DNA of 51,101 nucleotides from Burkholderiaceae bacterium. Lineage in GTDB: Bacteria; Pseudomonadota; Gammaproteobacteria; Burkholderiales; Burkholderiaceae_E. The DNA lies in contig DAISWF010000010.1 in assembly GCA_036826495.1 (NCBI GenBank), forward strand, positions 1-51,101, written 5' to 3'. The notes below the pieces were generated by a model. The model saw only the letters and a list, made by a program, of their open reading frames with translations, ran no database searches and was not told the origin of the DNA. This document shows, in pieces, positions 8,594 to 45,583 of the stretch (the stretch's first letter is position 1; the number at the start of each line of letters is the position of its first letter). A program made the translations under genes and the position numbers.

Positions 8594-8630
8594 GGCGGTC
8601 TCCTGGCGGAAAGACCGCTAGCGTACACCG

Positions 8631-10325: not shown

Positions 10326-10335
10326 TGCGATGTCC

Positions 10336-11793: not shown

Positions 11794-11798
11794 GGCGC

Positions 11799-12602: not shown

Positions 12603-12605
12603 CCT

Positions 12606-13562: not shown

Positions 13563-13590
13563 GATGGGCTTGTCCTCGCCGGCCGCTCGT

Positions 13591-14991: not shown

Positions 14992-15009
14992 AGGGGTTGT
15001 TTTCCGCAG

Positions 15010-18295: not shown

Positions 18296-18331
18296 GTCTG
18301 TCTCCTGTCGTTCTTGGTGTGGCGGAACCGG

Positions 18332-31066: not shown

Positions 31067-31852
31067 TCAACGCGGTTTGTGAAGGTCGTCGAGCACGACG
31101 CTCAACTGGTAGACGTCGGGCCGCAGCAAATGGGTGGTCGTCTCGACCGGCGTACCGTTCGCATCGCGTGTGATGCGATCGAGCACCAGCAGGTAGGCGC
31201 TCTGCGAGATCTCCAGCGCCTGAGCGCTGGCCGGCGAAGGTTGACGGCACGAGACGAGGAACTGCGCTTGCCGCAGTTCGAGTTTCAGCTTCTTCTTCAG
31301 CAGTTCGTAGATCGGCCGGCGGTCGACGTCCTCGCGGGTGATGCGGCGGCCGATGTCGTGCGGCACGGTGATCCGCGTGATCGCATGCGGCACCCCGCGC
31401 AGCAGGTAGCGGCGCTCGTAGCACAGCACCGGCCGCTGCCAGGCCTGCAGTTCGGCGGGCAGGTCGGGCTCGTCGATCCAGTCGAAGCGGGTGACTTCGA
31501 CGCGGACGTCCTCGCCGAACTGCCGGAAGGTTTCCAGGAACGGCGCCAGCCGGTCGATCGAGTGCACGATCCGCGGCAGCGGCCGCGCAACGAAGGTGCC
31601 CTTGCCCTGTCGGCGCACGAGCAGCCCTTCGGCGACCAGCCGGTCCAGCGCCTTGCGCACCGTCGATCGGCTGACGCCGTACTGGCGCGTGAGGAACTCT
31701 TCCGTGGGCGCTTGGTCGCCGGGGGCGAGCTCGCCCCCGAGATGTTCACGAAGGCGGTCCAGGATCTGTTCGTACAGCGAATGGGCGCTGTCCCGCTCGA
31801 GAGAGGGCCCGGAGCGGCGCGCGCGACTGTTGGATATGCGTGGCGTGTTCAT
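31067..31852 (-). CDS. GntR-family regulator, HutC subfamily
   Basis: 261 aa. HTH is APTEEFLTRQYGVSRSTVRKALDRLVAEGLLVRRQGKGTFV, followed by a UTRA-like C-terminus. Divergent from the 15-gene operon. Confidence 0.9.
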   Translation of the reverse strand: MNTPRISNSRARRSGPSLERDSAHSLYEQILDRLREHLGGELAPGDQAPTEEFLTRQYGVSRSTVRKALDRLVAEGLLVRRQGKGTFVARPLPRIVHSIDRLAPFLETFRQFGEDVRVEVTRFDWIDEPDLPAELQAWQRPVLCYERRYLLRGVPHAITRITVPHDIGRRITREDVDRRPIYELLKKKLKLELRQAQFLVSCRQPSPASAQALEISQSAYLLVLDRITRDANGTPVETTTHLLRPDVYQLSVVLDDLHKPR

Positions 31853-31978: not shown

Positions 31979-32803
31979 GTGTCACCCGTCACCACGACTC
32001 TCTCGCCCGCCGGCAGCCTGCAGCCGCGGCGCCGCAAGCCCTGGCCCAATGCGGCGATCGCCGCCGTCTCACTGGTCCTGATTGCGACGCTGTGGACGGT
32101 GGTGTCCACCTCCGGCTGGCTGCCGCAGGGCTATCTGCCGTCGCCGCAGGAGCTGTTCGCCGAACTGATGACGCTGGCCACGGTCGGTTACAAGGGCACG
32201 TCGCTGTGGATGCACATCGGCATCAGCCTGTTCCGCACGCTGACCGGCTTCATGCTCGGCATCGCGCTGGGCATTCCACTGGGCCTGCTGACCGGCTACA
32301 ACCGCGTGGCCGGCGCCGCCGTCTCGCCGGTCATGGCCTTCATCCGCCCCATTCCGCCGATCGCCTTCATTCCGATGGTGGTGCTGTATTTCGGTCTGGG
32401 CGAGACCGGCAAGGTGGTGCTGATCTTCTGGACCGCATTCAACTACGTGCACGTCAACGCGCATGCCGGCGCGGCCGGCGTGCCGATCTCCTACCTGCGC
32501 GCCGCGAAGTCGATCGGGCTGACCGACCGTCAGACGTTCTTTCGCGTGGTGCTGCCGGCGGCGATACCGCAGATCTTCACCGGCCTGAAGGTCGGCATGG
32601 CACTCGCGTGGGCGGTGGTGGTGGCCGCCGAACTGACGGGGGCGCAGTCGGGGCTCGGCTACATGATCGCCGATGCGGCACTGACCTTCCGGATCGCGGC
32701 CGTCTTCATCGGCATCGCCCTGATCGGGCTGATCGGGCTGGCCTTGAACATCGCGCTGAACTTCCTGGAAGCGCGGGTGGTGCACTGGAGGGGGCGCACG
32801 TGA
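31979..32803 (+). CDS. ABC transporter permease, NitT/TauT family
   Basis: 274 aa with GTG start. Close paralogue of 16455-17264; shared blocks include FIRPIPPIAFIPM, VLYFGLGETGKVVLI and VVVAAEL. Confidence 0.9.
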   Translation: MSPVTTTLSPAGSLQPRRRKPWPNAAIAAVSLVLIATLWTVVSTSGWLPQGYLPSPQELFAELMTLATVGYKGTSLWMHIGISLFRTLTGFMLGIALGIPLGLLTGYNRVAGAAVSPVMAFIRPIPPIAFIPMVVLYFGLGETGKVVLIFWTAFNYVHVNAHAGAAGVPISYLRAAKSIGLTDRQTFFRVVLPAAIPQIFTGLKVGMALAWAVVVAAELTGAQSGLGYMIADAALTFRIAAVFIGIALIGLIGLALNIALNFLEARVVHWRGRT

Positions 32804-33465
32804 TCGACAAGCGCTGTCAGTCCGCCGCCCGGGCGGTAGCCTGCATCCGTCCGGGCATGACGGTGGCCGTGGGCGGCTTCGGCGACATCGGCGTGCCGCT
32901 CGCGCTGTGCGCCGCGCTCGCCGAGCACGACGTGCACGGACTCACCATCGTTTCGAACAACGCCGGCACCGCCGAGAACGGGCTGGCACTGCTGTTCAAG
33001 CAGCACCGCGTGGCCCGGCTGATCGCATCGTTTCCGTCGCAGCCCGGCGCCGACCACTTTCTGCGCGCCTGGCGTGAACGCGAGGTGGAGGTGGAACTGG
33101 TGCCGCAGGGCACGCTGGCCGAGCGGCTGCGCGCCGGCGGCTCGGGCCTGGCCGGCTTCTTCACCCCCACCGGATACGGAACCGAGCTGACCACCGGCAA
33201 GGAGACGCGATTCGTCGACGGCACCGGCTACGTCTACGAGCAGGCGTTGAAAGTCGACGTCGCTCTGGTCAAGGCGGAGCTGGCCGATCGCCTGGGCAAT
33301 CTGCGCTACCGGCTGGCCAGCCGCAATTTCAACCCGGTGATGGCGATGGCCGCCCGGCACACGATCGCGCAGGTGGGCCGGCTGGTCGAGCCCGGCGGCA
33401 TCGACCCGGACGACGTGCACACGCCCGGTGTGTATGTCGACGCCGTCGTGGAGCAGCGAGCATGA
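32800..33465 (+). CDS. 3-oxoacid CoA-transferase subunit A
   Basis: 221 aa from GTG 32800, with a GTGA overlap with the permease stop. Blocks include GMTVAVGGFGDIGVP, LTIVSNNAG, ELVPQGTLAERLRAGG and NFNPVMAMAA. Confidence 0.9.
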   Translation: MIDKRCQSAARAVACIRPGMTVAVGGFGDIGVPLALCAALAEHDVHGLTIVSNNAGTAENGLALLFKQHRVARLIASFPSQPGADHFLRAWREREVEVELVPQGTLAERLRAGGSGLAGFFTPTGYGTELTTGKETRFVDGTGYVYEQALKVDVALVKAELADRLGNLRYRLASRNFNPVMAMAARHTIAQVGRLVEPGGIDPDDVHTPGVYVDAVVEQRA

Positions 33466-34112
33466 GCGGAAGCACCGGCTGGAGCGACGACGAGCTCGCG
33501 CGCCGGGTCGCGCTGGACTTTCCCGACGGCGCCTGCGTGAACCTGGGCATCGGCCTGCCCACGCGGGTGGCGCGGCACGTGCCGGCCGACCGCGAGGTGC
33601 TGTTCCACAGCGAGAACGGCCTGGTCGGCATGGGTCCCGAACCGGCGCCCGGACGGGAGGATCCGGACATCGTCAATGCCGGCAAGAAGCCGGTAACGCT
33701 GGTTCGCGGCGCGGCGATCGTCCATCAGGCCGATTCGTTCTCGCTGATCCGCGGCGGGCGGCTGTGGGCCACGGTGCTGGGCGGCCTGCAGGTCGCCGAG
33801 AACGGCGATCTGGCGAACTGGAAGGTGCCGGGTACGCCCGGCGTCGGCGGCGTCGGCGGCGCGATGGATCTGGCGGCCGGCGCCCGGCGGGTCATCGTGA
33901 TGATGCGCCACACCGACAAGCAGGGCGCGCCCAAGCTCGTGCGGCGCTGCACTTTCCCTCTGACGGCGACCCGTTGCGTGACATCCGTGTTCACCGAGCT
34001 CGCAGTGATCGATCTGCGCGACGGGCACTTCGTCGTGCGCGAGGCGGCTCCCGGCGTCACGCGTGACCACCTGGCCGCGGCCACCGGGGCAGCGCTGCAC
34101 TTCAACGACTGA
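33462..34112 (+). CDS. 3-oxoacid CoA-transferase subunit B
   Basis: 216 aa with an ATGA overlap. Has NLGIGLPT, the catalytic-Glu motif SENG in FHSENGLVGMG, and GGAMDL. Confidence 0.9.
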   Translation: MSGSTGWSDDELARRVALDFPDGACVNLGIGLPTRVARHVPADREVLFHSENGLVGMGPEPAPGREDPDIVNAGKKPVTLVRGAAIVHQADSFSLIRGGRLWATVLGGLQVAENGDLANWKVPGTPGVGGVGGAMDLAAGARRVIVMMRHTDKQGAPKLVRRCTFPLTATRCVTSVFTELAVIDLRDGHFVVREAAPGVTRDHLAAATGAALHFND

Positions 34113-34134: not shown

Positions 34135-34908
34135 TTGAAACGATTCGACAATCAGGTGGTGATCGTCACCGGCGGCGGTGGCGGAATGGGGCTGGCGTTC
34201 TGCACGGCATTCGCTCGCGAAGGTGCGCGGGTGATCGCGGTCGACCGGCACGAGGCGGCCGTTCGCGCGACCTGCGACGCGATGGCGCGCGAGGATCTGC
34301 GCGGCGAGCCGCTGGCGCTGGACGTCGCCGACGAGCAGTCGGTCCGCCAGGCGTTCCAGGCCATCGCCGCGCGCCATGGCCGGATCGACGTGCTGGTCAA
34401 CGGCGCCGGCATCCGGCCGGTGGCCGACCTGCTCGACCAGTCGGCGGCCGAGTTCGACGCCTGCATGCGGGTCAACGGCACAGGCGTGTTCCTGTGCGCG
34501 CGCGAGGCGGCGCGCCACATGCTGCCGGCCGGGCGCGGCGCAATCGTCAACATCGCATCGGTCAACGGCATGCGCGCGGTCACCGGCATGGGCGCCTACT
34601 GCGCATCGAAGGCGGCGGTGATCTCGCTGACGCAGACGATGGCCAGCGAGTGGGGGCCGCGCGGCGTGCGCGTGAACGCGATCCTGCCGGCGCAGGTGGA
34701 GACGCCGATGATCGCCGAGCAGGTGGGTGCCGAGCGCCGGCGCCGAGAGGAGCGCATTCCGCTCGGGCGCTACGGCAAGCCGGCCGAGATCGCCGCCGGG
34801 GCGATGTTTCTCGCATCCGACGCCGCGTCGTTCATCAACGGGCATCCGCTCGCGCTGGACGGCGGCTACCTGGCGTTCGGCTTCCGCCCGCAGGTGGTGC
34901 CGCAATGA
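34135..34908 (+). CDS. Short-chain dehydrogenase/reductase (SDR)
   Basis: TTG start at 34135 follows gaaagga; the in-frame ATG at 34063 would overlap the previous gene by 50 nt. Motifs are TGGGGGMG, NGAG, catalytic YCASKAA, and the PG-like ILPAQVETPM. Confidence 0.88.
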   Translation: MKRFDNQVVIVTGGGGGMGLAFCTAFAREGARVIAVDRHEAAVRATCDAMAREDLRGEPLALDVADEQSVRQAFQAIAARHGRIDVLVNGAGIRPVADLLDQSAAEFDACMRVNGTGVFLCAREAARHMLPAGRGAIVNIASVNGMRAVTGMGAYCASKAAVISLTQTMASEWGPRGVRVNAILPAQVETPMIAEQVGAERRRREERIPLGRYGKPAEIAAGAMFLASDAASFINGHPLALDGGYLAFGFRPQVVPQ

Positions 34909-35534
34909 ACGCGCGCGACGAGAGCATCACGTTCGCGGAGGTCGAGGAGATCCTGCGCATCATCGATCAGTTCCCGGCCGCCGAGGTGACGTACCAGCGC
35001 GGTGACCTGAAGCTGCACGTCCGCCGGGCTGGGGCAGGTGTCGCGAGCCCCGCGCCGGCGGCCGGCGCCGTGATTGCCGGCGGGACGCAGGCTGCCGGCG
35101 CCGCACAGGCGGGTGCCGCGCAGGCGGGTGGCTTGCAGACAGGTGGCACGCAAACGGGAGGCATGCAGGCAGCCGGTACCGCGCAGGACGCCGGCGCCGC
35201 GCCGGCGATCGCCGCCCCGGCCGGCGCGGCCGGCATGACTGCCGCCGCCGCCGCGACGCACGGCGGCCCCGCCGATCGCGACGGCCTGGCCGCCGTCGTG
35301 TCGCCGCTGATGGGCGCCTTCTATGCGGCGCCGGCGCCGGATGCGCCGCCGTTCGTCGAGGTCGGCCGGCGCGTCGTTCCTGGCGACGACCTCTGCATCA
35401 TCGAAGTGATGAAGGTGATGAACCTGATCAAGGCCGAAGTGGCCGGAGTCGTCATAGCGGTCGAGGCGGTCAACGCGGCGATCGTCGAACGCGGCCAGCC
35501 GCTGATGTGGATCCGGCCGGAGGTGGCGCCATGA
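34905..35534 (+). CDS. Biotin carboxyl carrier protein (free-standing BCCP)
   Basis: 209 aa with an ATGA overlap. The biotinyl domain is GDDLCIIEVMKVMNLIKAEVAGVV, with the Lys in the V-M-K-V context. The N-terminal segment is ITFAEVEEILRIID. The linker is long and rich in G/A/Q. Confidence 0.85.
   Translation: MNARDESITFAEVEEILRIIDQFPAAEVTYQRGDLKLHVRRAGAGVASPAPAAGAVIAGGTQAAGAAQAGAAQAGGLQTGGTQTGGMQAAGTAQDAGAAPAIAAPAGAAGMTAAAAATHGGPADRDGLAAVVSPLMGAFYAAPAPDAPPFVEVGRRVVPGDDLCIIEVMKVMNLIKAEVAGVVIAVEAVNAAIVERGQPLMWIRPEVAP
35100..35174 (+). repeat. Five tandem 15-nt units encoding xxQxG pentapeptide repeats in the BCCP linker
   Basis: Units are gccgcacaggcgggt | gccgcgcaggcgggt | ggcttgcagacaggt | ggcacgcaaacggga | ggcatgcaggcagcc. 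They encode AAQAG AAQAG GLQTG GTQTG GMQAA. Confidence 0.8.
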
Positions 35535-36685
35535 CCGGCCGCCACGACCCGGCGGCCGCGCTGGTCGGCGCGGCCGAGTCCGATCTGGGGGCGGTGCCCG
35601 ATCGCACCGCGGCCGAACTGGCGGTGCAGGCCTCGCTGGCGGCGCTGGACGATGCCGGCCTGTCGCTGGCCGATGTCGACGGCCTGTTCACCGCCAATCT
35701 GTCGCGGTTCTCGGTGACACAGCTCGCCGAACAGCTCGCGATCCAGCCGGCGGTGCTGGACTGCACGATGACCGGCGGCTCGTCGTTCGAGATGCACGTC
35801 GCGCATGCGGTGTCGGCCATCCGTGCCGGGCTGTGCGAGGTGGCGCTGATCGCCTACGGCAGCGTGCAGCGGTCGCGCAAGGCGCGCAATCTGCAGGGGT
35901 TCTCCGAGAACGGCACGTCGGCCGCGCTGTACGAGAACTGCTACGCGCCGCTGTTTCCGCTGTCGTTCTACGCGCTGGTTGCCCAGCGATACATGCACGA
36001 GACCGGCGCCACCGGCGAGGACCTGGCGCGGGTGGCGGTCGCGGCGCGGCAGTGGGCGGCGCTGAATCCCAAGGCGTTCAAGCGCGAGCCGCTGACGCTG
36101 GCCGACGTGATGGCCTCGCCGATGGTCAGCTCGCCGCTGCGCGGGCTGGACTGCTGCCTGGTCACCGACGGCGGCGGCGCGGTGGTGGTCGCCAGCGCAG
36201 CGCGCGCGAAGTCGCTGAAGAAGAAGCCGGTCTGGGTGCTCGGCCACGGCGAAGCCACGACGCACGACGCGATGTCGCAGGCGCCGGACCTGCTGCGCCA
36301 CGGATCGGCCGATTCGGCGAGCCGCGCCTACGCGATGGCCGGCGTGACGCCCGCGGACGTCGACGTCACGCAGATCTACGACGCATTCACGATCAACGTG
36401 CTGGTCGGGCTGGAGAACCTGGGTTTCTGCGGGCCGGGCGAGGCGCGTCACTTCATCGCCGAGCGCGGCATCGGGCCCGGCGGCCGCTTCGCGCTCAACA
36501 CCACCGGGGGCGGACTGTCGTACTGCCATCCCGGCATGTTCGGCGTGTTCCTGCTGATCGAGGCCGTGCGCCAGCTTCGCGGCGAGTGCGGCGAGCGCCA
36601 GGTGCGCGACGCGCGCATCGCGCTGGCGCATGGCACCGGCGGAATCTTCAGTTCGCATGCCACCGTGATCATGGGGGTTCAATGA
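35531..36685 (+). CDS. SCP-x/nonspecific-type thiolase-like protein (DUF35-partnered)
   Basis: 384 aa from ATG 35531 with an ATGA overlap. The thiolase fold lacks the canonical biosynthetic-thiolase motifs. C-terminal blocks are NTTGGGLSYCHPGMFG and GTGG. It is followed by a DUF35 gene, as in BbsAB-type and archaeal thiolase complexes. Confidence 0.85.
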   Translation: MTGRHDPAAALVGAAESDLGAVPDRTAAELAVQASLAALDDAGLSLADVDGLFTANLSRFSVTQLAEQLAIQPAVLDCTMTGGSSFEMHVAHAVSAIRAGLCEVALIAYGSVQRSRKARNLQGFSENGTSAALYENCYAPLFPLSFYALVAQRYMHETGATGEDLARVAVAARQWAALNPKAFKREPLTLADVMASPMVSSPLRGLDCCLVTDGGGAVVVASAARAKSLKKKPVWVLGHGEATTHDAMSQAPDLLRHGSADSASRAYAMAGVTPADVDVTQIYDAFTINVLVGLENLGFCGPGEARHFIAERGIGPGGRFALNTTGGGLSYCHPGMFGVFLLIEAVRQLRGECGERQVRDARIALAHGTGGIFSSHATVIMGVQ

Positions 36686-37092
36686 TGGGCAATCCGAGGC
36701 CGCTTCCGGAAGCCGACAACGGTGCCGCCGCGTTCTGGGAGGGCGCCCGCCGTGGCGAACTGCTGGTGCAGCGCTGCGACGACTGCGGCAATCATCAACA
36801 CTACGCGCGCCCGTTCTGCGTAGCCTGCCGGGGACGCAGGCTGACGATGGTACCGGTCGGTGGCCGCGGCGTGCTGCACTCGTTCACCGTCGTGCACCGC
36901 GCACCCTTCGACGATCTGCCGGCACCGTACGTGGTCGCGCTGGTGCGGTTGCAGGAAGGGCCGACGATCCTTTCGCACCTGGTCGGCTGCGATCCGGCCG
37001 CCGCGCGGTGCGACATGCCGGTGCGCGTGGACTTCCAGCCGCTGCGCGACGGCGTGATGCTGCCGGTGTTCCGCTCGGCGGACGGAGCCTGA
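36682..37092 (+). CDS. DUF35 Zn-ribbon + OB-fold protein (thiolase partner)
   Basis: 136 aa with an ATGA overlap. The rubredoxin-like segment CDDCGNHQHYARPFCVACRG is followed by an OB-fold segment GRGVLHSFTVVH...YVVALVRLQEGP. Confidence 0.8.
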   Translation: MMGNPRPLPEADNGAAAFWEGARRGELLVQRCDDCGNHQHYARPFCVACRGRRLTMVPVGGRGVLHSFTVVHRAPFDDLPAPYVVALVRLQEGPTILSHLVGCDPAAARCDMPVRVDFQPLRDGVMLPVFRSADGA

Positions 37093-37096: not shown

Positions 37097-38463
<1,367 letters not shown>

Positions 38464-38467
<4 letters not shown>

Positions 38468-39951
38468 CTCCCCCTTTCAGACTGATGGACATCACGGTGC
38501 GCGACGCCCAGCAGTGCCTGTGGGCGACGCGGATGACCACCGAGCAGATGCTGCCGATCGCGCGCACTATGGACGCGGCCGGCTTCGACGTCATCGACCT
38601 GACCGGCGGCGCGGCGATCGACGCGAGCGTGATGTTCCTGAACGAGAACCCGTTCGAGCGGATCCGCGAGATGGCGAAGCTGGTGCGCCGCACGCCGATG
38701 AACTTCAACACGCGCGGACAGAGCATCTTCCGCTGGATGCAGTACGCCGACGACGTGGCCGAGTTCACGCTCGATCTGCTCGCGCGCTGCGGCATCCGCT
38801 CGATCATGGTGTTCGACGCGCTCAACGACTTCCGCAACGCGCGCGCCACCGTGCGCTACGCCAAGGCGCTGGACCTGTACATCATCGGCGCGGTCACCTA
38901 TACGATCAGCCCGGTGCACACCGACGAGCACTTCGTCGGCAAGGTGCGCGACCTGGTCGCGATGGGCGTCGACGCGATCGAGCTGAAGGATCCGAGCGGG
39001 CTGCTGACGCCCGAGCGCATCCGTACGCTGGCGCCCAAGCTGCGCGCCGTCAAGGGCCGCTGCCAGTTGCAGCTCCATTCGCACTGCACCTTCGGGCACG
39101 GCGTGGACACCTACCGCGCCGCGATCGAGCTGCCGCCGGACCAGGGGTTCGACCTGTTCCATGCGGCGGCGCGGCCGCTGGCGCACGGCTATTCGCTGCC
39201 GCCGCACGAGCACGTGCTGGCCGAGGCCGACCGCGTGGGCCGCGCGGTGGCGATCGACCGCGACGCGATCCGCGAGATGGACCGCTACTTCTCCCTCATC
39301 ACCCGCCGGGCCGGGCGGGCGGAGGGCAGCCAGCCGCCGCTGCAGTCGGTCGACGTCGACCACCAGGTGCCCGGCGGCATGATGAGCAACCTCGAGCAGC
39401 AGCTCAGGGACCAGGGCCAGGCCCACCGCCTGCCCGAGGTGCTGAACGAGGTGGGCCGGGTGCGGCGCGACCTGGGCTGGCCGATCGTCGTCAGCCCGAT
39501 GGCCCAGTACCTGGGCACGCAGGCGGTGCTGAACGTGCTGACCGGCAAGCGATATCAGATCGTGCCGCAGGAGATCAAGCAGTACGTGCTGGGTTACTAC
39601 GGCGAGCTGGCGGCCCCGGTGGACGCGGAAGCCCGCGAGGCCATCGCCGGAGACGAGCCGTCGATCACCCGGCCGCCGGGGGAGCTGCTGCCGCCGATGA
39701 TGGCCGAGTACCGTCGCCAGTTCGCCGGCGCCAGAGACGACGAGGAGCTGGCGCTGCGCATCTTCTATACCCGGCGGACCGTCGACGAGCACTTCCGGCA
39801 GCGCCTGCTGGTCAAGCCCGGGGCGCTGGCCACCGATGCCGGCAGCTTCCTGGCGCGCGCGATGCTGTCCGACCCCGGCATCGAGCTGGTGGATGTGAAG
39901 CGCCGCGGCTTCCACTTCGCGATGAACCGTGCGGCGACCGCTGCCGCCTGA
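38464..39951 (+). CDS. 5S/HMGL-type carboxyltransferase (pyruvate carboxylase subunit B / oxaloacetate decarboxylase alpha-like) without a biotinyl domain
   Basis: 495 aa with an ATGA overlap. TIM-barrel start is LMDITVRDAQQCLWATRM. Has ELKDPSGLLTP and metal ligands in LHSHCTFGHG. The conserved C-terminal region is present, but there is no MKM biotinyl domain. Confidence 0.88.
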
Positions 39952-39967: not shown

Positions 39968-40282
39968 ATGGTACGCATAGAGATCATCCTGTTCCGCAAC
40001 CACATGACGCTCGAAGAGCAGCAGCGCTGGTGGACGGAGGAGCACGCGCCGATCGCCCGCCGCATGCCCGGCCTGCGCGGCTACTTCATCAACATGGCCG
40101 GCCGCGGCGAAGCGGGCGAGGAGCCGGAGATCTGCGGCACCGACACGCTGACGTTCGATAGCTGGGAGGCGGCGCAGGCCGCCTACGAATCGCCGGAGTG
40201 GAAGGCGGCGCGCGAGCACACCAAGGCTTCCGGCGCGCGCGCGCTGCGCACCTGGGTACGGGACCAGGTCACCATCATCTGA
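39968..40282 (+). CDS. EthD-domain protein (dimeric alpha/beta-barrel superfamily)
   Basis: 104 aa starting MVRIEIILFRNHMTLEEQQRWWTEEHAPIARRMPGLRGYFIN...DSWEAAQAAYESPEW. SD gagga lies upstream of ATG 39968. Confidence 0.7.
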   Translation: MVRIEIILFRNHMTLEEQQRWWTEEHAPIARRMPGLRGYFINMAGRGEAGEEPEICGTDTLTFDSWEAAQAAYESPEWKAAREHTKASGARALRTWVRDQVTII

Positions 40283-40294
40283 GGGGCGGCGCAC

Positions 40295-41551
40295 GTGATT
40301 CTCACCGAAGAGGAACAGGACATGCTCGCCGGCCGGCACGGCGCCGCGCGGCGCGAGGCCATCAGCTACCAGATCGCCGTCGGCGACTTCTGGGGGGCCG
40401 AGCGGTTCGTGCCGATCACCAACGCCCACCTGATGGGCGACATCGAGGTGATGGGCGACGCCGGCCTCGGCTTCCTGGAGCGCGCCTGCGAAAAGCAGTA
40501 CGCCTGCAGCGTCCCGACGACCACCAATCCGCGCTGCATCGATTTCGCGCATGCGCAGTCGCTCGGGCAGGATGAAGTGGAGGCGGGCAAGGAAAGGCGC
40601 GTCATCCGGCTGCTGCGCGACATGAACATCGCGACCACCGACACCTGCATCAACTACCAGACGGTGTACCAGCCCCACGTCGGCGAGCATGTCGCCTGGG
40701 GCGATACCGGCACCGTGATCTACGCCAACTCGGTGTTCGGGGCGCGCAGCAACTTCGAAGGCGGCCCGGCGGTGCTGGCGGCGTCGGTCACCGGCCGCAC
40801 ACCGGCCTACGGCTTCCACCTGGACCGCCACCGCCGCGGCACGGTCGCGGTCCGGGTCGACGCGGCGCTGGACGACCTGGCCGACTGGGGAGCGGTCGGC
40901 AAGATCGTCGGCGAGGCGTACCAGAACTATTTCGCGGTGCCGGTATTCCACGGGCTGCGCCGCGCGCCGCAGGCCGACGAGCTGAAGCACCTGGGCTGCT
41001 CGCTGGCCAGCTACGGATCGATGGCGATGTTCCACATGGTCGGCGTGACGCCGGAGGCGCCGACCTTGGAAGCGGCGTTCGGCGGCGAGCCGCCGCAGGC
41101 CGAAATGGTGATCACCGATGCCGATCTGCAGCGCGTCTATGCCGGCTACTCCCGGGGAGACGGCAGTGCGACACTGGTCGTCTTCTCGGGCCCGCAGCTT
41201 TCGCTGTTCGAGATGAAGGACCTGGCGCAGCGCTTCGATGGCCGACGCGTGGCCCGCGGCACCGACGTCTACGTCACCACCGCCGCGTCGGTAAAGGCCT
41301 CGGCCGAACGGCTGGGCTACCTGAAGGTGCTGGAGGAGGCCGGCGTCACGGTGCTGGAGGGCGTCTGCTTCTACATCCTGCAGAACCTCACGCAGATGCG
41401 GCTGGCGCACGGCTGGACCAACATGGTGTCCAACTCGGCCAAGATCGTCAACATCATCGGCGCCCACCGTTCCAACACCCTCCTGCGCCGCACGCAGGAC
41501 TGCGTGGAGATCGCCGTCAGCGGCCGGCTCGAACCGGGGAGCGCCCGATGA
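40295..41551 (+). CDS. Aconitase X catalytic subunit (DUF521, AcnX large subunit)
   Basis: 418 aa with GTG start. Begins LTEEEQDMLAGRHG. Conserved blocks are ITNAHLMGD, TTTNP, CINYQ, WGDTGTVIYANSVFGARSN and MVSNSAK. Directly followed by a DUF126 gene. Confidence 0.85.
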   Translation: MILTEEEQDMLAGRHGAARREAISYQIAVGDFWGAERFVPITNAHLMGDIEVMGDAGLGFLERACEKQYACSVPTTTNPRCIDFAHAQSLGQDEVEAGKERRVIRLLRDMNIATTDTCINYQTVYQPHVGEHVAWGDTGTVIYANSVFGARSNFEGGPAVLAASVTGRTPAYGFHLDRHRRGTVAVRVDAALDDLADWGAVGKIVGEAYQNYFAVPVFHGLRRAPQADELKHLGCSLASYGSMAMFHMVGVTPEAPTLEAAFGGEPPQAEMVITDADLQRVYAGYSRGDGSATLVVFSGPQLSLFEMKDLAQRFDGRRVARGTDVYVTTAASVKASAERLGYLKVLEEAGVTVLEGVCFYILQNLTQMRLAHGWTNMVSNSAKIVNIIGAHRSNTLLRRTQDCVEIAVSGRLEPGSAR

Positions 41552-42009
41552 ACGCGGCGAGCGGCATTGCCGATGCCGTCGCCGCCGGCGTGCTGGCGAC
41601 GATCCGGGTGGAGCGCGCGTTCGGCCCGGTGGTCGAAGGCGCGGCGCTGGTTTCCGAAGAAGGTTTCTCGCCGCGCTACGACCTGGATCGCTGGACCGGG
41701 CTGATCACCAAGCCGGGCCACAAGCTCGAAGGCCACGACATCCGCGACCGCATCTGCTTCTTTCCCAGCGCCAAGGGCGGCATCGCGGCCGGCTGGGCGT
41801 TCCACGACATCAAGCACAAGAAGATCGCGCCGCGCGCGTTCGTGTTCGGCGTCACCAATCCGGTGATGGTGCAGGGTGCCGTCTTCGCCGGCATCACGAT
41901 CACCGAAGGTTGGTCGGCCGAGCCCGCCTCGCTGATCCGCAATGGCGACTGGGTGCGGGTGGACCCGGCGCGCAAGATCATCGAAGTGCTGCGGCGCGCG
42001 GCCGGCTGA
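41548..42009 (+). CDS. Aconitase X swivel-domain subunit (DUF126, AcnX small subunit)
   Basis: 153 aa with an ATGA overlap. Blocks are GFSPRYDLD...G, HDIRDRICFFPSAKGGIAAGWAF and PRAFVFGVTNPVMVQGAVFAGI. Confidence 0.8.
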   Translation: MNAASGIADAVAAGVLATIRVERAFGPVVEGAALVSEEGFSPRYDLDRWTGLITKPGHKLEGHDIRDRICFFPSAKGGIAAGWAFHDIKHKKIAPRAFVFGVTNPVMVQGAVFAGITITEGWSAEPASLIRNGDWVRVDPARKIIEVLRRAAG

Positions 42010-42039: not shown

Positions 42040-43086
42040 ATGGAGTTCTCGACGTTACGCCGCTGGCTGGCCGCGGCCGCCACCGCGGCCCTGAGCCTTG
42101 CAGCCACGACCGTCGCTTCCGCCCAGGGAGCGCTGCAGAAGTTCAACTATGGCGTTCCGACCGCCGACTACTACGTGCTGTACGTGGCCAAGGACCAGGG
42201 CCTGTTCCAGAAGCAGGGGCTGGATCCGCAGTTCTTCTTCTTTCCGTCGGGAGCACCGCTGCTGGCGGCGCTCAAGAGCGAAAGCGTGGACATCATCTCC
42301 ACCGGCTTGGCGACCGCGTTCGCCCTGGGACAGAAGATCCCGCTGAAACTGATCTTCTGGGAGATGGACGATTCGGCCGGCGAAGGCGTGATCGTCAGTC
42401 CGAAGTCGGGCATCCGGACGATCACCGATCTGCCCAAGGCCAAGGCGATCGGCGCACCGTCGGGCACCTGCGCGCAGGTGGCGCTGGGGCTGATCGCGCG
42501 CAAGATCGGCGTCAAGCCGTCCGACTTCAAGACCGTCAACATCGCGCCGCCGCTGTACGCCAACGCGTTCAGCAGCAATTCGCTCGATGCCGGCGTGGCG
42601 TGGGCGCCGTTCCTGCAGGCGCTGGCCGAGCAGGGGCAGACGATCATCGCCTATGACGCCGACTACGGCATCGACGGCGGGATCTGCCCGGTGATGACGG
42701 GCGGCCGCACGAAGTTCCTGCAGCAGAATCCGGAGATCGGCCACAAGCTCGTGCGGATCAATGCCGAGGCGGCGGCGATGATCGAGAAGAATCCACAGCT
42801 CGCGATCGACGCGCTGGTCAAGTATCTGTCGGTCACGCCGACGGTTGCCAAGGCGACCTATGAGCGCCTGTGCTGCGCGCGCCGCCCGACCTTCGCGCAG
42901 CAGTTGGACCCGGCGTCGCCGTATTCGATGGTCAACCGCGATGGCGGCCTGGTGAAGAAGCTGCTGATCGCCACTCAGGTGCTGGCCGAGGCGGGCACGA
43001 TACCGGCCGCGCTGACGGTGGACGAGATCGTGCAGGCGCTCGACACGAGCTACCTGCGCCGCTACGTCGAGGCGGCCGGCAAGTGA
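42040..43086 (+). CDS. ABC transporter substrate-binding protein (NMT1/THI5-like)
   Basis: 348 aa. Signal peptide is MEFSTLRRWLAAAATAALSLAATTVASAQG. SD ggggaga lies upstream. Close paralogue of 17261-18295. Confidence 0.9.
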   Translation: MEFSTLRRWLAAAATAALSLAATTVASAQGALQKFNYGVPTADYYVLYVAKDQGLFQKQGLDPQFFFFPSGAPLLAALKSESVDIISTGLATAFALGQKIPLKLIFWEMDDSAGEGVIVSPKSGIRTITDLPKAKAIGAPSGTCAQVALGLIARKIGVKPSDFKTVNIAPPLYANAFSSNSLDAGVAWAPFLQALAEQGQTIIAYDADYGIDGGICPVMTGGRTKFLQQNPEIGHKLVRINAEAAAMIEKNPQLAIDALVKYLSVTPTVAKATYERLCCARRPTFAQQLDPASPYSMVNRDGGLVKKLLIATQVLAEAGTIPAALTVDEIVQALDTSYLRRYVEAAGK

Positions 43087-43901
43087 ACGCCCTGCACATC
43101 CCTCTGCCCCCGGTGAAGATCGCCTTCCAGGGGGTTCAGAAATCGTATCCGGCCAAGCATGCTTCGCAGGCACCGACGCTCGCGCTGGACCGGCTCGACG
43201 TCGCGATACGGGACGCCGAGATCGTCTCGGTGCTCGGCCCCACCGGCTGCGGCAAATCGACGGCGCTGAATCTGATCGCCGGATTCGAGGAGGCGAGCAG
43301 CGGCGCTGTCGTGCTGGATGGCCAGCGCGTGGAGGGGCCGGGGCCCGATCGGGCGGTGGTGTTCCAGCAGGCGTCGCTGTTCCCGTGGCTGAACGTCTTC
43401 GACAACGTGACGCTCGGCGTGCGCTGCCGCGGCGTGCCGCCGTCGGACTACACGCCGCGCGCCGAACACCTGCTCGACGCGGTAGGGTTGACCGCCTTCG
43501 CGAAGCATTTCCCCTACCAGCTTTCCGGCGGCATGCAGCAGCGCGTGCAGATCGCCCGCGCGCTGATCGCGCAGCCCAAGGTGCTGCTGATGGACGAACC
43601 GTTCGGCGCACTGGACTACCAGACACGCATCTTCATGCAGGAACTGCTGCTGAAGTTGTGGGTCGAGTTCAAGCCGACGGTGTTCTTCATCACGCACGAC
43701 GTGTCCGAGGCGATCTTCGTCTCCGACCGGGTGCTGGTGATGAGCCGGCGGCCCGGCCGCGTGAAGCTGGCCGTCGATGTGCCGGCGCCGAAGCCGCGCA
43801 CCGCCGATTTCTTCAGCACGCCCGACTTCGTCGAGCAGCAGCGGCGATTGCTGCGCGCCGTGCAGGACGAGGTGCAGGGCGTCGAGGCCGTCGCGCACTG
43901 A
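43083..43901 (+). CDS. ABC transporter ATP-binding protein (NitT/TauT family)
   Basis: 272 aa from GTG 43083 with a GTGA overlap. Motifs are [18 protein letters not shown] and [11 protein letters not shown]. Close paralogue of 18332-19201. Confidence 0.92.
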
Positions 43902-43912
43902 GGACCCCAGCC

Positions 43913-45583
43913 ATGACCCGAGACCTCGAAGGCGAGTTCGACTACATCATCGTCGGCGCCGGCTCGGCCGGCTGCGTGCTCGCCGACCGTTTGACCGAAA
44001 GCGGCGAGCACCGGGTGCTGCTGCTGGAGGCCGGGCCGCCCGACCGCAATCCGTGGATTCACATCCCGATCGGCTATGGCAAGACGATGACCGATCCGGT
44101 GGTCAACTGGCGCTTCGAGACCGAACCGGAGCCGCACCTGCATGACCGGCGGCTGTACTGGCCGCGCGGACGCACGCTGGGCGGATCGAGCTCGATCAAC
44201 GGCCTCATCTACGTGCGCGGCCATCCGGCCGACTACGATGCGTGGGCCGCGCTGGGCAACCCCGGGTGGGGCCACGACGACCTGCTGCCGTGCTTCAGGC
44301 GCTCGGAGACCAATTCGCGGGGCGCCAGCGCCTGGCACGGCGACGCCGGGCCGATGCACGTGTCGGACATCGGCATCCGCCATCCGCTGGTCGAGGCGTT
44401 CATCGCCGGCGCCGCGGAGCTGGGCATTCCTCGCACCGAGGACTTCAACGGGCCGCGGCAGGAGGGCTCCGGCTACTATCAGTTGACAACGCGGCGCGGG
44501 TTGCGCTCGTCCACCGCGCGCAGCTATCTCGCGCGGGCGCGGCGGCGGCCGAACCTGAAGGTGCTGACCGGCGCTCATGCGACCGGGCTGGTGTTCGATG
44601 GCCTGCGCGCGACCGGCGTGACCTGGCGCCGCGGCGGCCAGGACGAACGGGCGCGCGCGCGGCGCGAGGTGCTGTTGGCCGCCGGCGCGATCCAGTCGCC
44701 GCAGATATTGGAGCTGTCGGGCATCGGCCAGCCCGAGCGGCTTGCGCCGCTCGGCATCCCGGTACGCGTGCCGACGCACGGGGTCGGCGAGAACCTGCAG
44801 GATCATCTGCAGGTGCGGCTGATCTACCGCTGCACGCAGCCGGTGACCACCAATGACGACTTGCGTACGCCGTGGGGCCGCGCGCGCATCGGCCTGCAAT
44901 GGCTGTTGCGGCGATCGGGGCCGCTGGCGATAGGCATCCAGCTCGGAGGTCTGTTCGCCCGCGCGCTCCCGGAAGCCGACCGGCCCGACGTCCAGTTCCA
45001 TTTCGGCACCATCAGCGCCGATGCGGTGGCCGGCAAGCCGCATGATTTCTCGGGTTTCACGCTGTCGATGTGCCAGCTTCGGCCCAGCAGCCGCGGCAGC
45101 ATCCATCTGAAGACGCGCGACCCGCTGAATGCGCCCGCCATCCGTCCGAACTACCTGGCGACCGAGCACGATCGAGCGGTGATGGTGGCGGGCACCCGAT
45201 TGTCGCGCGCGCTGATGCGCACGCATGCGATGGCGCCGTTCATCGCGGCCGAGCACAAGCCCGGCGCAGCGATGGGCGACGATGACGCCGCCATGCTGGA
45301 GTTCGTGCGTCGCGAGAGCGTGACGATCTTTCATCCGGTCGGCACCTGCGCGATGGGGCCTGACGAGGACGCGGTGGTCGATGCACGACTGCGCGTCTAC
45401 GGGACCGCAGGGTTGCGCGTCGTCGACGCCTCGATCATGCCGCTGCTCGTTTCCGGCAACACCAACGCGCCGGCGATCGCAGTGGCCGAGAAGGCGGCCG
45501 GACTGATCCTGGCCGACGGCCGCGCCGGCGCACCCGTCATCGCCCGACGCGGACGACAAGCGGAGACCATCGACGCCGCCTGA
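43913..45583 (+). CDS. GMC-family FAD oxidoreductase
   Basis: 556 aa from ATG 43913. Motifs are FDYIIVGAGSAGCVLADRL, GRTLGGSSSINGLIYVRG, and IFHPVGTCAMG...LRVVDASIMPLLVSGNTNA. Confidence 0.92.
   Translation: MTRDLEGEFDYIIVGAGSAGCVLADRLTESGEHRVLLLEAGPPDRNPWIHIPIGYGKTMTDPVVNWRFETEPEPHLHDRRLYWPRGRTLGGSSSINGLIYVRGHPADYDAWAALGNPGWGHDDLLPCFRRSETNSRGASAWHGDAGPMHVSDIGIRHPLVEAFIAGAAELGIPRTEDFNGPRQEGSGYYQLTTRRGLRSSTARSYLARARRRPNLKVLTGAHATGLVFDGLRATGVTWRRGGQDERARARREVLLAAGAIQSPQILELSGIGQPERLAPLGIPVRVPTHGVGENLQDHLQVRLIYRCTQPVTTNDDLRTPWGRARIGLQWLLRRSGPLAIGIQLGGLFARALPEADRPDVQFHFGTISADAVAGKPHDFSGFTLSMCQLRPSSRGSIHLKTRDPLNAPAIRPNYLATEHDRAVMVAGTRLSRALMRTHAMAPFIAAEHKPGAAMGDDDAAMLEFVRRESVTIFHPVGTCAMGPDEDAVVDARLRVYGTAGLRVVDASIMPLLVSGNTNAPAIAVAEKAAGLILADGRAGAPVIARRGRQAETIDAA

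What the first reader, a model, noticed from the sequence alone, without database searches (positions are those of the whole stretch)
40295..42009. AcnX (DUF521 + DUF126) pair in a context unrelated to its two known functions
**Seen:** The large (418 aa) and small (153 aa) AcnX subunits are translationally coupled by an ATGA at 41548. They sit between an EthD gene and an ABC binding protein. No proline/hydroxyproline genes and no isoprenoid genes are nearby.

**Established:** To my knowledge only two AcnX activities have been characterised. One is cis-3-hydroxy-L-proline dehydratase. The other is mevalonate-5-phosphate dehydratase of the archaeal modified mevalonate pathway. Both are dehydrations of a beta-hydroxy carboxylate.

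**Inference:** This pair probably dehydrates or hydrates a different beta-hydroxy acid, possibly a tertiary alcohol or a tricarboxylate-like intermediate produced by the neighbouring carboxylase and SDR. Thiolase/DUF35 and AcnX both also occur in the archaeal mevalonate route, which is a curious parallel.
Basis: partly seen in the sequence, partly recalled or inferred. Interest (0 to 1): 0.6.

Follow-up and report, generated by a model that had tools for sequence, protein, structure and literature searches.

The report
Uncharacterised aconitase-X enzyme lacking catalytic serine
The two genes are a real two-subunit aconitase-X enzyme from a bacterial branch that nobody has characterised. The branch has lost the family's catalytic serine and one iron-sulfur ligand, and it travels with organic-acid importers, sulfatase and alcohol-oxidising genes and a biotin carboxylase, so it probably performs a third, still unknown aconitase-X reaction.

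Summary
AcnX-L (40295-41551, 418 aa) and AcnX-S (41548-42009, 153 aa) overlap by ATGA. They lie between an EthD gene and an SsuA/TauA-like binding protein inside a 15-gene operon.

The pair is neither a cis-3-hydroxyproline dehydratase nor a mevalonate-5-phosphate dehydratase. It belongs to a separate, well-supported clade with these features:
- Only two of the three Fe-S cysteines are kept.
- The motif is WGDTG where other AcnX have xESS, and S[GA]PQ where they have GCPH.
- In the small subunit the catalytic serine is glycine (AKGG against GKGS).
- The substrate residues of both known activities are absent.

Relatives place this clade next to TTT, TRAP or MFS acid importers and GntR/UTRA regulators. 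In several independent arrangements it also sits with a choline-sulfatase-like sulfatase, GMC oxidoreductase plus aldehyde dehydrogenase, a dehydrogenase, a PycB-type biotin carboxylase and beta-keto-acid cleavage enzymes.

Most likely it (de)hydrates a free hydroxy- or enoyl-carboxylate next to the dehydrogenase. The substrate is unknown.

Watanabe 2021 already lists uncharacterised Type-IIc to IIf subclasses. This scan has flagged more than 220 other AcnX pairs in unexplained contexts in other genomes, though a sequence look-up found no close relative of this pair among them.

The parts
40295..41551 (+). AcnX large (catalytic) subunit, 418 aa, of the 'GDTG' clade. Cys118 and Cys358 are kept. 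Gly299 replaces the third Fe-S cysteine. Asp137-Thr138-Gly139 replace Glu-Ser-Ser. Lys383 is kept. Ile387 replaces Tyr.
41548..42009 (+). AcnX small (swivel) subunit, 153 aa, overlapping the large-subunit gene by ATGA. Gly78 stands where the catalytic Ser stands in other AcnX. The loop reads SPRYDLDR where others have SF(L/W)GGVDP.
39968..40282 (+). EthD-family protein directly upstream. It is present only in the full-operon version.
34135..34908 (+). SDR dehydrogenase. In the reduced operons of relatives it lies directly before AcnX-L.
34905..35534 (+). Biotin carboxyl carrier protein
35531..37092 (+). SCP-x-type thiolase (35531-36685) and its DUF35 / ChsH2-type Zn-ribbon-OB partner (36682-37092)
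37097..39951 (+). Biotin carboxylase (37097-38467) and PycB/OadA/5S-type carboxyltransferase (38464-39951)
32800..34112 (+). 3-oxoacid CoA-transferase subunits A and B (ScoAB/PcaIJ family)
31979..32803 (+). TauC-like ABC permease, first gene of the operon
42040..43901 (+). SsuA/TauA-like substrate-binding protein (42040-43086) and ABC ATPase (43083-43901)
43898..45583 (+). GMC oxidoreductase (choline-dehydrogenase subfamily), last gene of the operon
31067..31852 (-). Divergent GntR/UTRA (HutC-type) regulator. The same regulator type accompanies this AcnX clade in many other loci.
7397..19201 (-). Companion cluster, in order of descending coordinates: ABC ATPase, SsuA-like SBP, permease, aldehyde dehydrogenase, Rieske oxygenase, reductase, GntR/UTRA, choline-sulfatase-like sulfatase, second GMC oxidoreductase, acetoacetyl-CoA thiolase. 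In relatives, most of these genes (ABC transporter, aldehyde dehydrogenase, Rieske oxygenase, reductase and, in some, the sulfatase and a GMC oxidoreductase) directly follow or interleave with the AcnX operon.

Best explanation
The pair is an intact, functional two-subunit hydro-lyase of an uncharacterised bacterial aconitase-X clade, here called the 'GDTG' clade. It probably corresponds to one of Watanabe's subclasses IIc to IIf.

It most likely adds or removes water (or another beta-leaving group) on a free hydroxy- or enoyl-carboxylic acid. That acid is neither cis-3-hydroxyproline nor mevalonate 5-phosphate.

Inferred role in this operon:
1. An SsuA/TauA-like ABC system imports a small sulfate ester or sulfonated alcohol.
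2. The choline-sulfatase-like sulfatase, the GMC oxidoreductases and the aldehyde dehydrogenase convert it to a carboxylic acid. The Rieske oxygenase may also take part.
3. AcnX and the SDR act back to back on that acid to give a keto acid or methyl ketone.
4. The PycB-type biotin carboxylase makes or maintains a beta-keto acid.
5. The 3-oxoacid CoA-transferase and the thiolase/DUF35 pair cleave it to acyl-CoA units.

Shown: the identity and integrity of the genes; clade membership; loss of the catalytic Ser and of the third Cys; the recurrent gene partners. Inferred: the direction and order of the steps, the chemical class of the substrate, and which residue replaces the serine base. Candidates for that base are the clade-invariant Tyr44 in the small subunit and Tyr360 in the large subunit.
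For: Family and integrity: full-length Pfam matches. The homology runs over the whole length of TkAcnX and AtAcnX.

Separate clade:
- In a FastTree of 116 full-length representatives, all 21 GDTG-motif sequences fall in one clade of 26 tips with support 1.0. That clade contains none of the IIa-like or three-Cys sequences.
- The motif table shows Cys118 and Cys358 kept, GDTG against xESS, S[GA]PQ against GCPH, C[FWL]Y, Lys383 kept and Ile387 against Tyr.
- The only invariant cysteines in the clade are C118 and C358.

Small subunit: AKGG(I/V)A is invariant, down to a paralogue only 33% identical. It aligns without gaps to GKGS(T/S) of canonical small domains in MAFFT and in hhalign (probability 99.4%). 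The serine is the proposed base, and Ser-to-Ala mutants are inactive (PMC5144071; PMC8184944).

Not the known activities: At Asp203 is Met, Ser293 is Thr and Tyr534 is Ile; Tk Ser50 is Asp and Asn53 is Val. NF051439 scores 209 bits here, against 466-484 bits for IIa-like representatives.

Context:
- The whole operon is conserved at 76-84% AcnX identity in contigs from different samples.
- The same clade stands next to TctC (31 of 80 loci, mostly at +1, +2 or -1), TctA/B, TRAP DctPQM, MFS and GntR/UTRA.
- Sulfatase orthologues of 67-76% identity occur in 12 of 112 loci in at least four architectures.
- GMC plus ALDH flank AcnX in L055, L069/L070 and L138; in L090 only a GMC does.
- Reduced operons read perm-SDR-AcnXL-AcnXS-SBP (L067, L068).
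- An independent operon reads GntR, 3-HIBDH-type dehydrogenase, AcnXL, AcnXS, PycB-like CT, BC, BKACE (seen whole in L094; L091 ends after the CT).

Precedent: BKACE and CoA-dependent thiolysis are interchangeable after an SDR oxidises a free 3-hydroxy acid (PMC6365646).
Against: - No substrate has been identified and nothing has been assayed.
- At 62-75% identity most members stand alone with a transporter and a regulator, so the operon partners here may say little about the AcnX reaction itself.
- The role of a pyruvate-carboxylase-type carboxyltransferase in a CoA-rich catabolic operon is unexplained. No single scheme I could draw accounts for all partners at once.
- Loss of the catalytic serine and of one cluster ligand leaves open that the enzyme is not a hydro-lyase at all.
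- TctC genes are very numerous in Burkholderiales, so part of that association is background.
- Many of the 112 loci are related to each other and are not independent.
Confidence: 0.6

Rival explanations
1. [quoted passage not shown]
For: Like Type IIa, it has only two candidate cysteine ligands (PMC8184944). NCBIfam's only named hit is the LhpI model.
Against: The LhpI model scores 209 bits against a cut-off of 700, lower than for every other subclass tested. IIa-like representatives score 466-484 bits. The hydroxyproline-binding residues Asp203, Ser293, Tyr534, Ser70 and Thr72 are all replaced. The clade is separate in the tree. No proline-racemase-family gene was found in the assembly (74.7% complete).
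Confidence: 0.02
2. It is a bacterial mevalonate-5-phosphate (or mevalonate-like) dehydratase of the Type IIb kind.
For: The best solved relative is TkAcnX (209 bits against 139 bits for AtAcnX). Asn78, which corresponds to Tk Asn79, is kept. Thiolase/DUF35 genes lie nearby.
Against: The phosphate loop is not conserved: Tk Ser50 is Asp and Asn53 is Val, with one residue deleted. The third cysteine Cys283 is Gly. Glu129-Ser130-Ser131 is Asp-Thr-Gly. The catalytic Ser is Gly. No HMG-CoA reductase was found in the assembly. The context is catabolic, with importers.
Confidence: 0.02
3. It is a beta-eliminating lyase that removes a sulfur leaving group rather than water. An example would be a sulfolactate-type sulfo-lyase giving pyruvate plus sulfite, or elimination from a sulfated hydroxy acid. 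The pyruvate would then feed the PycB-type carboxylase.
For: The operon's importer is closest to SsuA and TauA sulfonate binders. A choline-sulfatase-like enzyme recurs beside the clade. In Thiomonas the pair lies about 5 kb from a GD_AH-family (altronate-dehydratase-type) gene, the family to which, from memory, SuyB belongs, with a Tau-like ABC system. The paralogue on contig C221 neighbours a YeeE-type sulfur-transport gene. A better leaving group would fit a weakened Lewis-acid and base apparatus. One step from an imported acid to pyruvate would explain the minimal regulator-transporter-AcnX modules. Unchecked notes from this scan place other AcnX pairs in taurine and sulfopropanoate operons.
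Against: A TauE/SafE-type sulfite exporter is found near only 1 of 112 AcnX loci. A SuyB-like gene is found in only 1 of 112. The presence of sulfatases argues for hydrolytic removal of sulfate before AcnX acts. TTT, TRAP and MFS importers are not specific for sulfonates. This reading does not explain the beta-keto-acid cleavage genes.
Confidence: 0.12
4. It dehydrates a 2,3-dihydroxy acid (glycerate, a tartrate isomer or a substituted analogue) to a 2-oxo acid. This would be the oxygen analogue of the hydroxyproline reaction. The product (pyruvate, oxaloacetate or an analogue) is central metabolism in the minimal modules and the substrate of the PycB-type carboxylase here.
For: Minimal modules of regulator, di/tricarboxylate importer and AcnX imply a one-step link to central metabolism. 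PycB/OadA/5S-type carboxyltransferases act on pyruvate or oxaloacetate (established knowledge). A 3-HIBDH-family dehydrogenase sits directly before AcnX in L091 and L094; from established knowledge that family includes tartronate-semialdehyde reductases. GMC plus ALDH would make such acids from polyols.
Against: It does not explain the 3-oxoacid CoA-transferase, the thiolase/DUF35 pair or BKACE. No glycerate or tartrate genes are nearby. No assay has been done.
Confidence: 0.15
5. It is a catalytically dead or merely structural AcnX relic.
For: The catalytic Ser and one cluster ligand are lost.
Against: 41 residues of the large subunit are invariant across 15 clade sequences whose identity to the window protein runs from 75% down to 38%, among them Cys118, Asp137, Cys358 and Lys383. 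The small-subunit motif is invariant. The genes are translationally coupled, intact in more than 100 loci, and embedded in catabolic operons.
Confidence: 0.03

Closest known systems
AcnX Type IIb: mevalonate-5-phosphate (phosphomevalonate) dehydratase of archaea (T. kodakarensis TK1249/TK1248, PDB 7CNR/7CNS; A. pernix)
   Same: Two separate subunits in the same order and of the same size. It is the best solved relative (209 bits for the large subunit, 46 bits for the small). The first and third cluster cysteines, Asn79 and Lys361 have counterparts.
   Different: Cys283 is Gly. Glu129-Ser130-Ser131 is Asp-Thr-Gly. The phosphate-binding loop is not conserved. The catalytic Ser of the small subunit is Gly. 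The context is bacterial and catabolic, with importers. No mevalonate pathway was found.
[quoted passage not shown]
   Same: Same superfamily fold. Like Type IIa it has only two candidate cysteine ligands, so a [2Fe-2S]-like or other non-cubane centre is possible.
   Different: All hydroxyproline-contacting residues are replaced. At Cys510 is Tyr. The LhpI model scores 209 of the 700 bits required. The clade is separate. There are no hydroxyproline genes.
AcnX Type-IIc to IIf: bacterial subclasses named but not characterised by Watanabe et al. 2021 (PMC8184944)
   Same: They are described as two-subunit bacterial AcnX that carry no landmark residue of either known activity, which is what is seen here.
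   Different: The paper's Supplementary Fig. 8 is an image and is not held as text, so I could not say which letter this clade corresponds to. The paper's text as read here does not mention loss of the catalytic serine, and it gives no gene context.
Oxidative deoxyribonate pathway (SDR dehydrogenase plus beta-keto acid cleavage enzyme, or CoA-ligase/thiolase variant; Price et al. 2019, PMC6365646)
   Same: Pathway logic only. A free 3-hydroxy acid is oxidised by an SDR to a beta-keto acid. That acid is cleaved either by BKACE or through CoA esters and a thiolase, and acetoacetate is handled by a CoA-transferase plus thiolase. The window operon and L094 show the same two alternatives.
   Different: That pathway has no AcnX, no biotin carboxylase, no sulfatase and no GMC/ALDH step. 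The proteins are not shown to be orthologous.

Membership tests
Aconitase X (AcnX) family | Catalytic domain PF04412 (DUF521) together with swivel domain PF01989 (DUF126) | tested here: met
   386.1 bits and 68.4 bits, both far above the curated cut-offs of 31.5 and 27
Aconitase X (AcnX) family | Serine in the G(K/R)GS(T/C) loop of the swivel domain, the proposed catalytic base (At Ser70, Pa Ser66; Ser-to-Ala mutants inactive) | tested here: not met
   Gly78 stands at that position. AKGG(I/V)A is invariant in the clade. It aligns without gaps to GKGS in MAFFT and hhalign. The role of the serine comes from PMC5144071 and PMC8184944.
Aconitase X (AcnX) family | Conserved Lys (At Lys530, Tk Lys361) and an acidic residue (At Glu292, Tk Glu129) at the cluster-bound water and substrate hydroxyl | tested here: inconclusive
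   Lys383 is kept. The acidic residue is Asp137 rather than Glu, and Asp is invariant in the clade.
AcnX Type IIb (mevalonate-5-phosphate dehydratase) | Three cysteine ligands for a [4Fe-4S]/[3Fe-4S] cluster (Tk Cys110, Cys283, Cys342) | tested here: not met
   Cys118 and Cys358 are present. The Cys283 position is Gly299 (Gly or Ala across most of the clade).
AcnX Type IIb (mevalonate-5-phosphate dehydratase) | Phosphate-binding loop Gly48-Val49-Ser50 with Asn53, plus Asn79 | tested here: not met
   The loop reads G-(gap)-D-I-E-V. Only the counterpart of Asn79 (Asn78) is kept.
AcnX Type IIb (mevalonate-5-phosphate dehydratase) | Organism uses a mevalonate pathway | tested here: not met
   No HMG-CoA reductase (PF00368) was found in the assembly, which is 74.7% complete.
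[quoted passage not shown] | Substrate-contact residues Asp203, Ile206, Ser293, Tyr534, Trp35, Ser70, Thr72 (At numbering), reported as fully conserved in Type IIa | tested here: not met
   The counterparts are Met47, Ile50, Thr138, Ile387, Arg43 (in the SPRYDL loop), Gly78 and Ala80. Only the Ile is kept.
[quoted passage not shown] | Score above the NCBIfam equivalog cut-off for LhpI (NF051439, 700 bits) | tested here: not met
   209.4 bits here. IIa-like representatives score 466-484 bits on the large subunit alone.
[quoted passage not shown] | Location in, or co-occurrence with, an L-hydroxyproline gene cluster | tested here: not met
   No proline-racemase-family gene in the assembly. Neighbours are listed.
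AcnX Type-IIc to IIf (uncharacterised bacterial subclasses, Watanabe 2021) | Two-subunit bacterial AcnX without the landmark residues of either known activity | tested here: met
   Which letter applies could not be settled, because the figure is not held as text.
Any AcnX activity | Fe-S cluster type and hydro-lyase activity of the purified heterodimer | not testable with these tools
   This needs anaerobic expression, UV/EPR spectroscopy and enzyme assays.

The most novel reading that the evidence does not exclude
The GDTG clade is a third functional type of aconitase X that works without the superfamily's serine base and with a two-cysteine metal centre. On this reading it catalyses the key step of an undescribed route in freshwater and soil Burkholderiales: a small sulfate ester or sulfonated alcohol is imported, desulfated and oxidised to an acid. 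AcnX and a dehydrogenase then reshape that acid into a methyl ketone or keto acid. A pyruvate-carboxylase-type biotin enzyme carboxylates it to a beta-keto acid, and a thiolase/DUF35 pair or BKACE cleaves that acid. This would amount to an oxygen-independent, biotin-dependent methyl-ketone cleavage pathway.
Probability: 0.25. Interest if true: 0.75.

Novelty: new variant of a known kind. Interest (0 to 1): 0.5.

Why it matters
Aconitase X is the least understood branch of the aconitase superfamily, and only two reactions are known for it. This clade is common in environmental Burkholderiales: 40 of 401 sampled genomes of the order carry it. It keeps a strongly conserved active site yet lacks the serine that serves as the proposed base throughout the superfamily, and it lacks one cluster ligand. 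It is therefore a good target for finding a third AcnX reaction and a different catalytic solution. Its repeated pairing with a sulfatase, GMC/ALDH oxidation, a pyruvate-carboxylase-type biotin enzyme and beta-keto-acid cleavage points to an unrecognised catabolic route for small organosulfur or hydroxy-acid compounds. The value is limited at present because the substrate is unknown, because uncharacterised AcnX subclasses are already acknowledged in the literature, and because this scan has met many other unexplained AcnX pairs.

Tried and rejected
- **Literature.** Searches for 'aconitase X', AcnX, DUF521, DUF126, PF04412 and PF01989, and for combinations of the partner enzymes, found no third characterised AcnX activity and no description of this operon.
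- **Sulfite-exporter test of the sulfo-lyase idea.** An HMM built from five TauE genes of this genome hit only 1 of 112 AcnX loci. SuyB-like and YeeE-like queries hit 1 and 0 loci. There is no systematic association.
- **Phylum-wide sample.** Only 1 of 400 other genomes carries the clade, so that search gave no context. The order-level sample and the named-genome scan did.
- **Naming the subclass letter (IIc to IIf).** Supplementary Fig. 8 of PMC8184944 is an image and is not readable.
- **Wrong-frame ORFs.** ORF 38514-39980 is a wrong-frame shadow, and so is 29838-31082 (no family). The real genes are the carboxyltransferase 38464-39951 and a minus-strand SsuA-like SBP at about 29950-30896.
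- **Specific pathway schemes considered, none of which explains all partners:** free-acid 3-methylcrotonate to 3-hydroxy-3-methylbutyrate to acetone; 3-methylglutaconate to HMG; crotonobetaine to carnitine; glycerate or tartrate dehydration; hexenedioate to 3-oxoadipate.
- **Not run.** I did not run structure or complex prediction. The tools return scores, not coordinates, so they could not show which residue replaces the serine.
- **Earlier notes of this scan** were used as leads only.
Full report
**Observation.** The window (70% G+C) holds ORFs 40295..41551 (+, GTG, 418 aa) and 41548..42009 (+, ATG, 153 aa), which overlap by ATGA at 41548-41551. Pfam matches the first to PF04412 AcnX over the full model (386.1 bits, E 2.1e-115). 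It matches the second to PF01989, the AcnX swivel domain (68.4 bits, E 5e-19). The upstream gene is EthD (PF07110 and TIGR02118). Its real start is about 39968, judged from orthologues. The downstream gene is an NMT1/SsuA-type binding protein.

**The operon.** On the + strand, from 31979 to 45583, the genes are:
- a TauC-like permease;
- 3-oxoacid CoA-transferase subunits A and B;
- an SDR;
- BCCP;
- an SCP-x-type thiolase and its DUF35 partner;
- biotin carboxylase;
- a PycB/OadA/5S-type carboxyltransferase (38464-39951; the ORF 38514-39980 is a wrong-frame shadow);
- EthD;
- AcnX-L and AcnX-S;
- an SBP and an ABC ATPase;
- a GMC oxidoreductase.

A divergent GntR/UTRA regulator lies at 31067-31852.

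A second cluster lies on the minus strand at 7397-19201. It holds an ABC ATPase, an SsuA-like SBP, a permease, an aldehyde dehydrogenase, a phthalate-family Rieske oxygenase, a reductase, a GntR/UTRA regulator, a choline-sulfatase-like sulfatase, a second GMC oxidoreductase and an acetoacetyl-CoA thiolase. In relatives the two clusters are contiguous.

**Comparison with the characterised enzymes.** The large subunit is closer to archaeal TkAcnX (PDB 7CNR, 209 bits) than to A. tumefaciens cis-3-hydroxyproline dehydratase (7CNP, 139 bits). The small subunit behaves the same way (46 against 17 bits). NCBIfam's LhpI equivalog scores 209 bits against a cut-off of 700.

I mapped the residues described by Watanabe et al. 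2021 (PMC8184944) onto the alignments:
- Cluster ligands Tk Cys110 / At Cys273 and Tk Cys342 / At Cys508 are kept, as Cys118 and Cys358.
- Tk Cys283 is Gly299, and At Cys510 is Tyr360. Only two cysteines remain.
- Tk Glu129-Ser130-Ser131 (At Glu292-Ser293-Asn) is Asp137-Thr138-Gly139.
- Lys383 (At Lys530) is kept.
- At Tyr534 is Ile387.
- At Asp203, which binds the ring nitrogen, is Met47.
- The Tk phosphate loop has one residue missing, with Ser50 replaced by Asp and Asn53 by Val.
- In the small subunit the G(K/R)GS(T/C) loop reads AKGGIA, so the catalytic serine is Gly78. That serine is At Ser70 or Pa Ser66; it is the proposed base and Ser-to-Ala mutants are inactive.

The serine-to-glycine result holds in the HMMER alignments. 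It also holds in a MAFFT alignment with the swivel domains of four fused canonical AcnX proteins. A gap-free profile-profile alignment agrees (hhalign probability 99.4%).

**A distinct clade.** An exhaustive search of 1.84 billion representatives gave 2495 clusters at E up to 0.001. I tabulated the key positions in 117 sequences, mostly full-length representatives. Most AcnX carry xESS, GCPH, Cxx, K and Y. A separate group, including this pair and a 47%-identical paralogue on contig C221 of the same genome, carries GDTG, S[GA]PQ, C[FWL]Y, K and I. In a FastTree of 116 sequences this group forms one clade of 26 tips with support 1.0. That clade contains none of the IIa-like representatives (HIDG, ESN, GSPH) or three-Cys representatives. 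The IIa-like representatives score 466-484 bits on the LhpI model.

Within the clade, 41 large-subunit positions are invariant. They include Cys118, Asp137, Thr138, Gln301, Cys358, Tyr360 and Lys383, and no third cysteine. In the small subunit, AKGG, the S(P/A)RYDL loop and the H-K-L motif are invariant down to 33% identity. This is a conserved, selected active site, not decay.

Watanabe 2021 states that bacterial subclasses IIc to IIf possess no landmark residue of either activity and await characterisation. This clade fits that description. I could not assign the letter, because the relevant figure is an image.

**Distribution.** The clade was found in 1 of 400 other genomes sampled across the phylum and in 40 of 401 sampled in the same order. 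A scan of species genomes returned 80 loci, mostly Burkholderiales MAGs. Cultured carriers among those loci are Aromatoleum diolicum 22Lin, Pelomicrobium sp. G1, Pollutimonas bauzanensis, Roseomonas sp. AR75 and Roseicella. Thiomonas sp. X19 also carries it.

**Gene context in relatives.**
- *Full operon.* The full 15-gene operon recurs, in the same order, in metagenome contigs whose AcnX-L is 76-84% identical (L006-L011, L066).
- *Stand-alone modules.* At 62-75% identity the pair usually stands as a small module with a GntR/UTRA regulator and an organic-acid importer. The importer is an MFS (Thiomonas L003, L013), a TRAP DctPQM (L014, L048-L051, L088) or, most often, a TTT system. A TctC gene is adjacent in 31 of 80 loci, mostly at positions +1, +2 or -1, and TctA and TctB also occur.
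- *Sulfatase.* Orthologues of the window's choline-sulfatase-like enzyme (67-76% identity) lie in 12 of 112 AcnX loci in at least four architectures. One of these reads sulfatase-TctC-TctC-AcnXL-AcnXS-TctC-TctC.
- *GMC and ALDH.* Orthologues of the GMC oxidoreductase (58-62%) and the aldehyde dehydrogenase (37-67%) flank AcnX in L055, L069/L070 and L138; L090 has the GMC only. L138 also has the Rieske oxygenase and its reductase.
- *Reduced operons.* Two MAGs (Herminiimonas L067, Rubrivivax L068) have perm-SDR-AcnXL-AcnXS-SBP, without the CoA-transferase, BCCP, thiolase/DUF35, BC, CT and EthD genes. That block is therefore an add-on, and the SDR is AcnX's closest enzymatic partner.
[quoted passage not shown] L091 ends after the CT. 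L090 has the dehydrogenase and BKACE, with a TRAP importer and a GMC. This is a second, independent link between AcnX, a dehydrogenase, a pyruvate-carboxylase-type biotin enzyme and beta-keto-acid cleavage.

These loci are partly related to one another, so the counts are not independent events.

**Interpretation.**
- The importers (TTT, TRAP, MFS) argue that the AcnX substrate, or its immediate precursor, is a carboxylate.
- The sulfatase, GMC and ALDH partners argue that in some organisms this acid is made from a sulfated alcohol. So does an importer whose nearest solved relatives are the sulfonate binders SsuA and TauA.
- A dehydrogenase next to AcnX, together with enzymes specific for beta-keto acids, fits a free-acid scheme like the oxidative deoxyribonate pathway. 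Those enzymes are the ScoAB/PcaIJ-type CoA-transferase plus thiolase/DUF35 here, and BKACE elsewhere. In the deoxyribonate pathway an SDR makes a beta-keto acid that is cleaved by BKACE or via CoA esters (PMC6365646).
- PycB/OadA/5S-type carboxyltransferases interconvert a methyl ketone (pyruvate) and a beta-keto acid (oxaloacetate). This is established knowledge of the family; the family assignment comes. The carboxylase may therefore make or preserve the beta-keto acid.

I could not draw one scheme that explains every partner, and I name no substrate with confidence. The candidates and their weaknesses are listed under the rival explanations and under what was tried and rejected.

The loss of the serine base means the mechanism differs from that of every studied member of the superfamily. 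The clade-invariant Tyr44 lies in the loop that contacts substrate in AtAcnX, in the position of Trp35. Tyr360 stands at the position of At Cys510. Both are candidate replacements for the base, by inference only.

**Tests of rival readings.**
- Hydroxyproline dehydratase and mevalonate-5-phosphate dehydratase are rejected on residues, scores, tree position and the absence of pathway genes. The caveat is that the assembly is 74.7% complete.
- A sulfo-lyase role is attractive but lacks the expected sulfite-exporter or SuyB association (1 of 112 loci each).
- A dead enzyme is unlikely, given the invariant active-site residues and the intact, coupled genes in more than 100 loci.

**Novelty.** The pair is a new variant of a known kind. 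It is a member of an acknowledged but uncharacterised part of the AcnX family. The rewired active site (no serine base, two cysteines, Asp in place of Glu) and the recurrent gene partners are, as far as the searched literature shows, undescribed.

This scan has recorded more than 220 notes on AcnX pairs in unexplained contexts in other genomes, so the general observation is common. A sequence look-up found no close relative of this pair among them; that look-up detects only fairly close relatives.

Noticed in passing
G000 contig C221, locus L002:706-3197: A second AcnX pair of the same GDTG clade (large subunit 47% identical, small subunit 33%) follows a GntR/UTRA gene. An ArsR regulator and a YeeE/YedE-type 'sulphur transport' gene lie on the other strand. 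The genome therefore carries two members of the clade.
   Followed up: partly
window 7397-19201 (minus strand) compared with L006:15457-21257, L009 and L066: Most of the cluster of ABC transporter, ALDH, Rieske oxygenase, reductase, sulfatase and GMC directly follows the AcnX operon in relatives (80-91% identical proteins). Here it lies 12-24 kb upstream on the opposite strand, with a cox (CO-dehydrogenase-like) cluster in between. That points to a rearrangement or insertion in this genome.
   Followed up: partly
L067:5525-10047 and L068:7978-12712: Reduced operons read perm-SDR-AcnXL-AcnXS-SBP and lack the CoA-transferase, BCCP, thiolase/DUF35, BC, CT and EthD genes. The carboxylase and thiolysis block therefore behaves as an insertable module.
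   Followed up: partly
L094:120-7175 (also L091 and L090): A compact operon holds a 3-HIBDH-family dehydrogenase, AcnXL, AcnXS, a PycB-like carboxyltransferase, a 719-aa biotin carboxylase (longer than usual, perhaps fused to BCCP) and a BKACE (DUF849) enzyme. I know of no pathway that combines these.
   Followed up: partly
window 38514-39980 and 29838-31082: These are long wrong-frame ORFs typical of 70% G+C DNA. The real genes are the carboxyltransferase 38464-39951 (+) and a third SsuA-like binding protein at about 29950-30896 (-), next to the GntR gene.
   Followed up: yes
window 34905-35534: The BCCP has a long Ala/Gly/Thr/Gln-rich linker, and its biotinylation site reads E-V-M-K-V-M where E-A-M-K-M is usual. 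It is encoded apart from BC and CT, with the thiolase/DUF35 pair in between.
   Followed up: no
L003:683-4780 (Thiomonas sp. X19): About 5 kb from the GntR-AcnX-MFS module lie a 391-aa GD_AH (altronate-dehydratase-type) gene with a small upstream ORF, a Tau-like ABC system and a 2-hydroxyacid dehydrogenase. From memory, SuyB belongs to this family. This could be a sulfolactate-type cluster, but the proximity may be chance.
   Followed up: partly
L047:9177-9515, L052:8874-9212, L057:10492-10830 and L102:3111-3449: A 112-aa 7Fe-type ferredoxin (Fer4 plus DUF3470) lies directly upstream of AcnX-L in several genera (three genera; five loci). It could be a chance housekeeping neighbour or a redox partner.
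   Followed up: no
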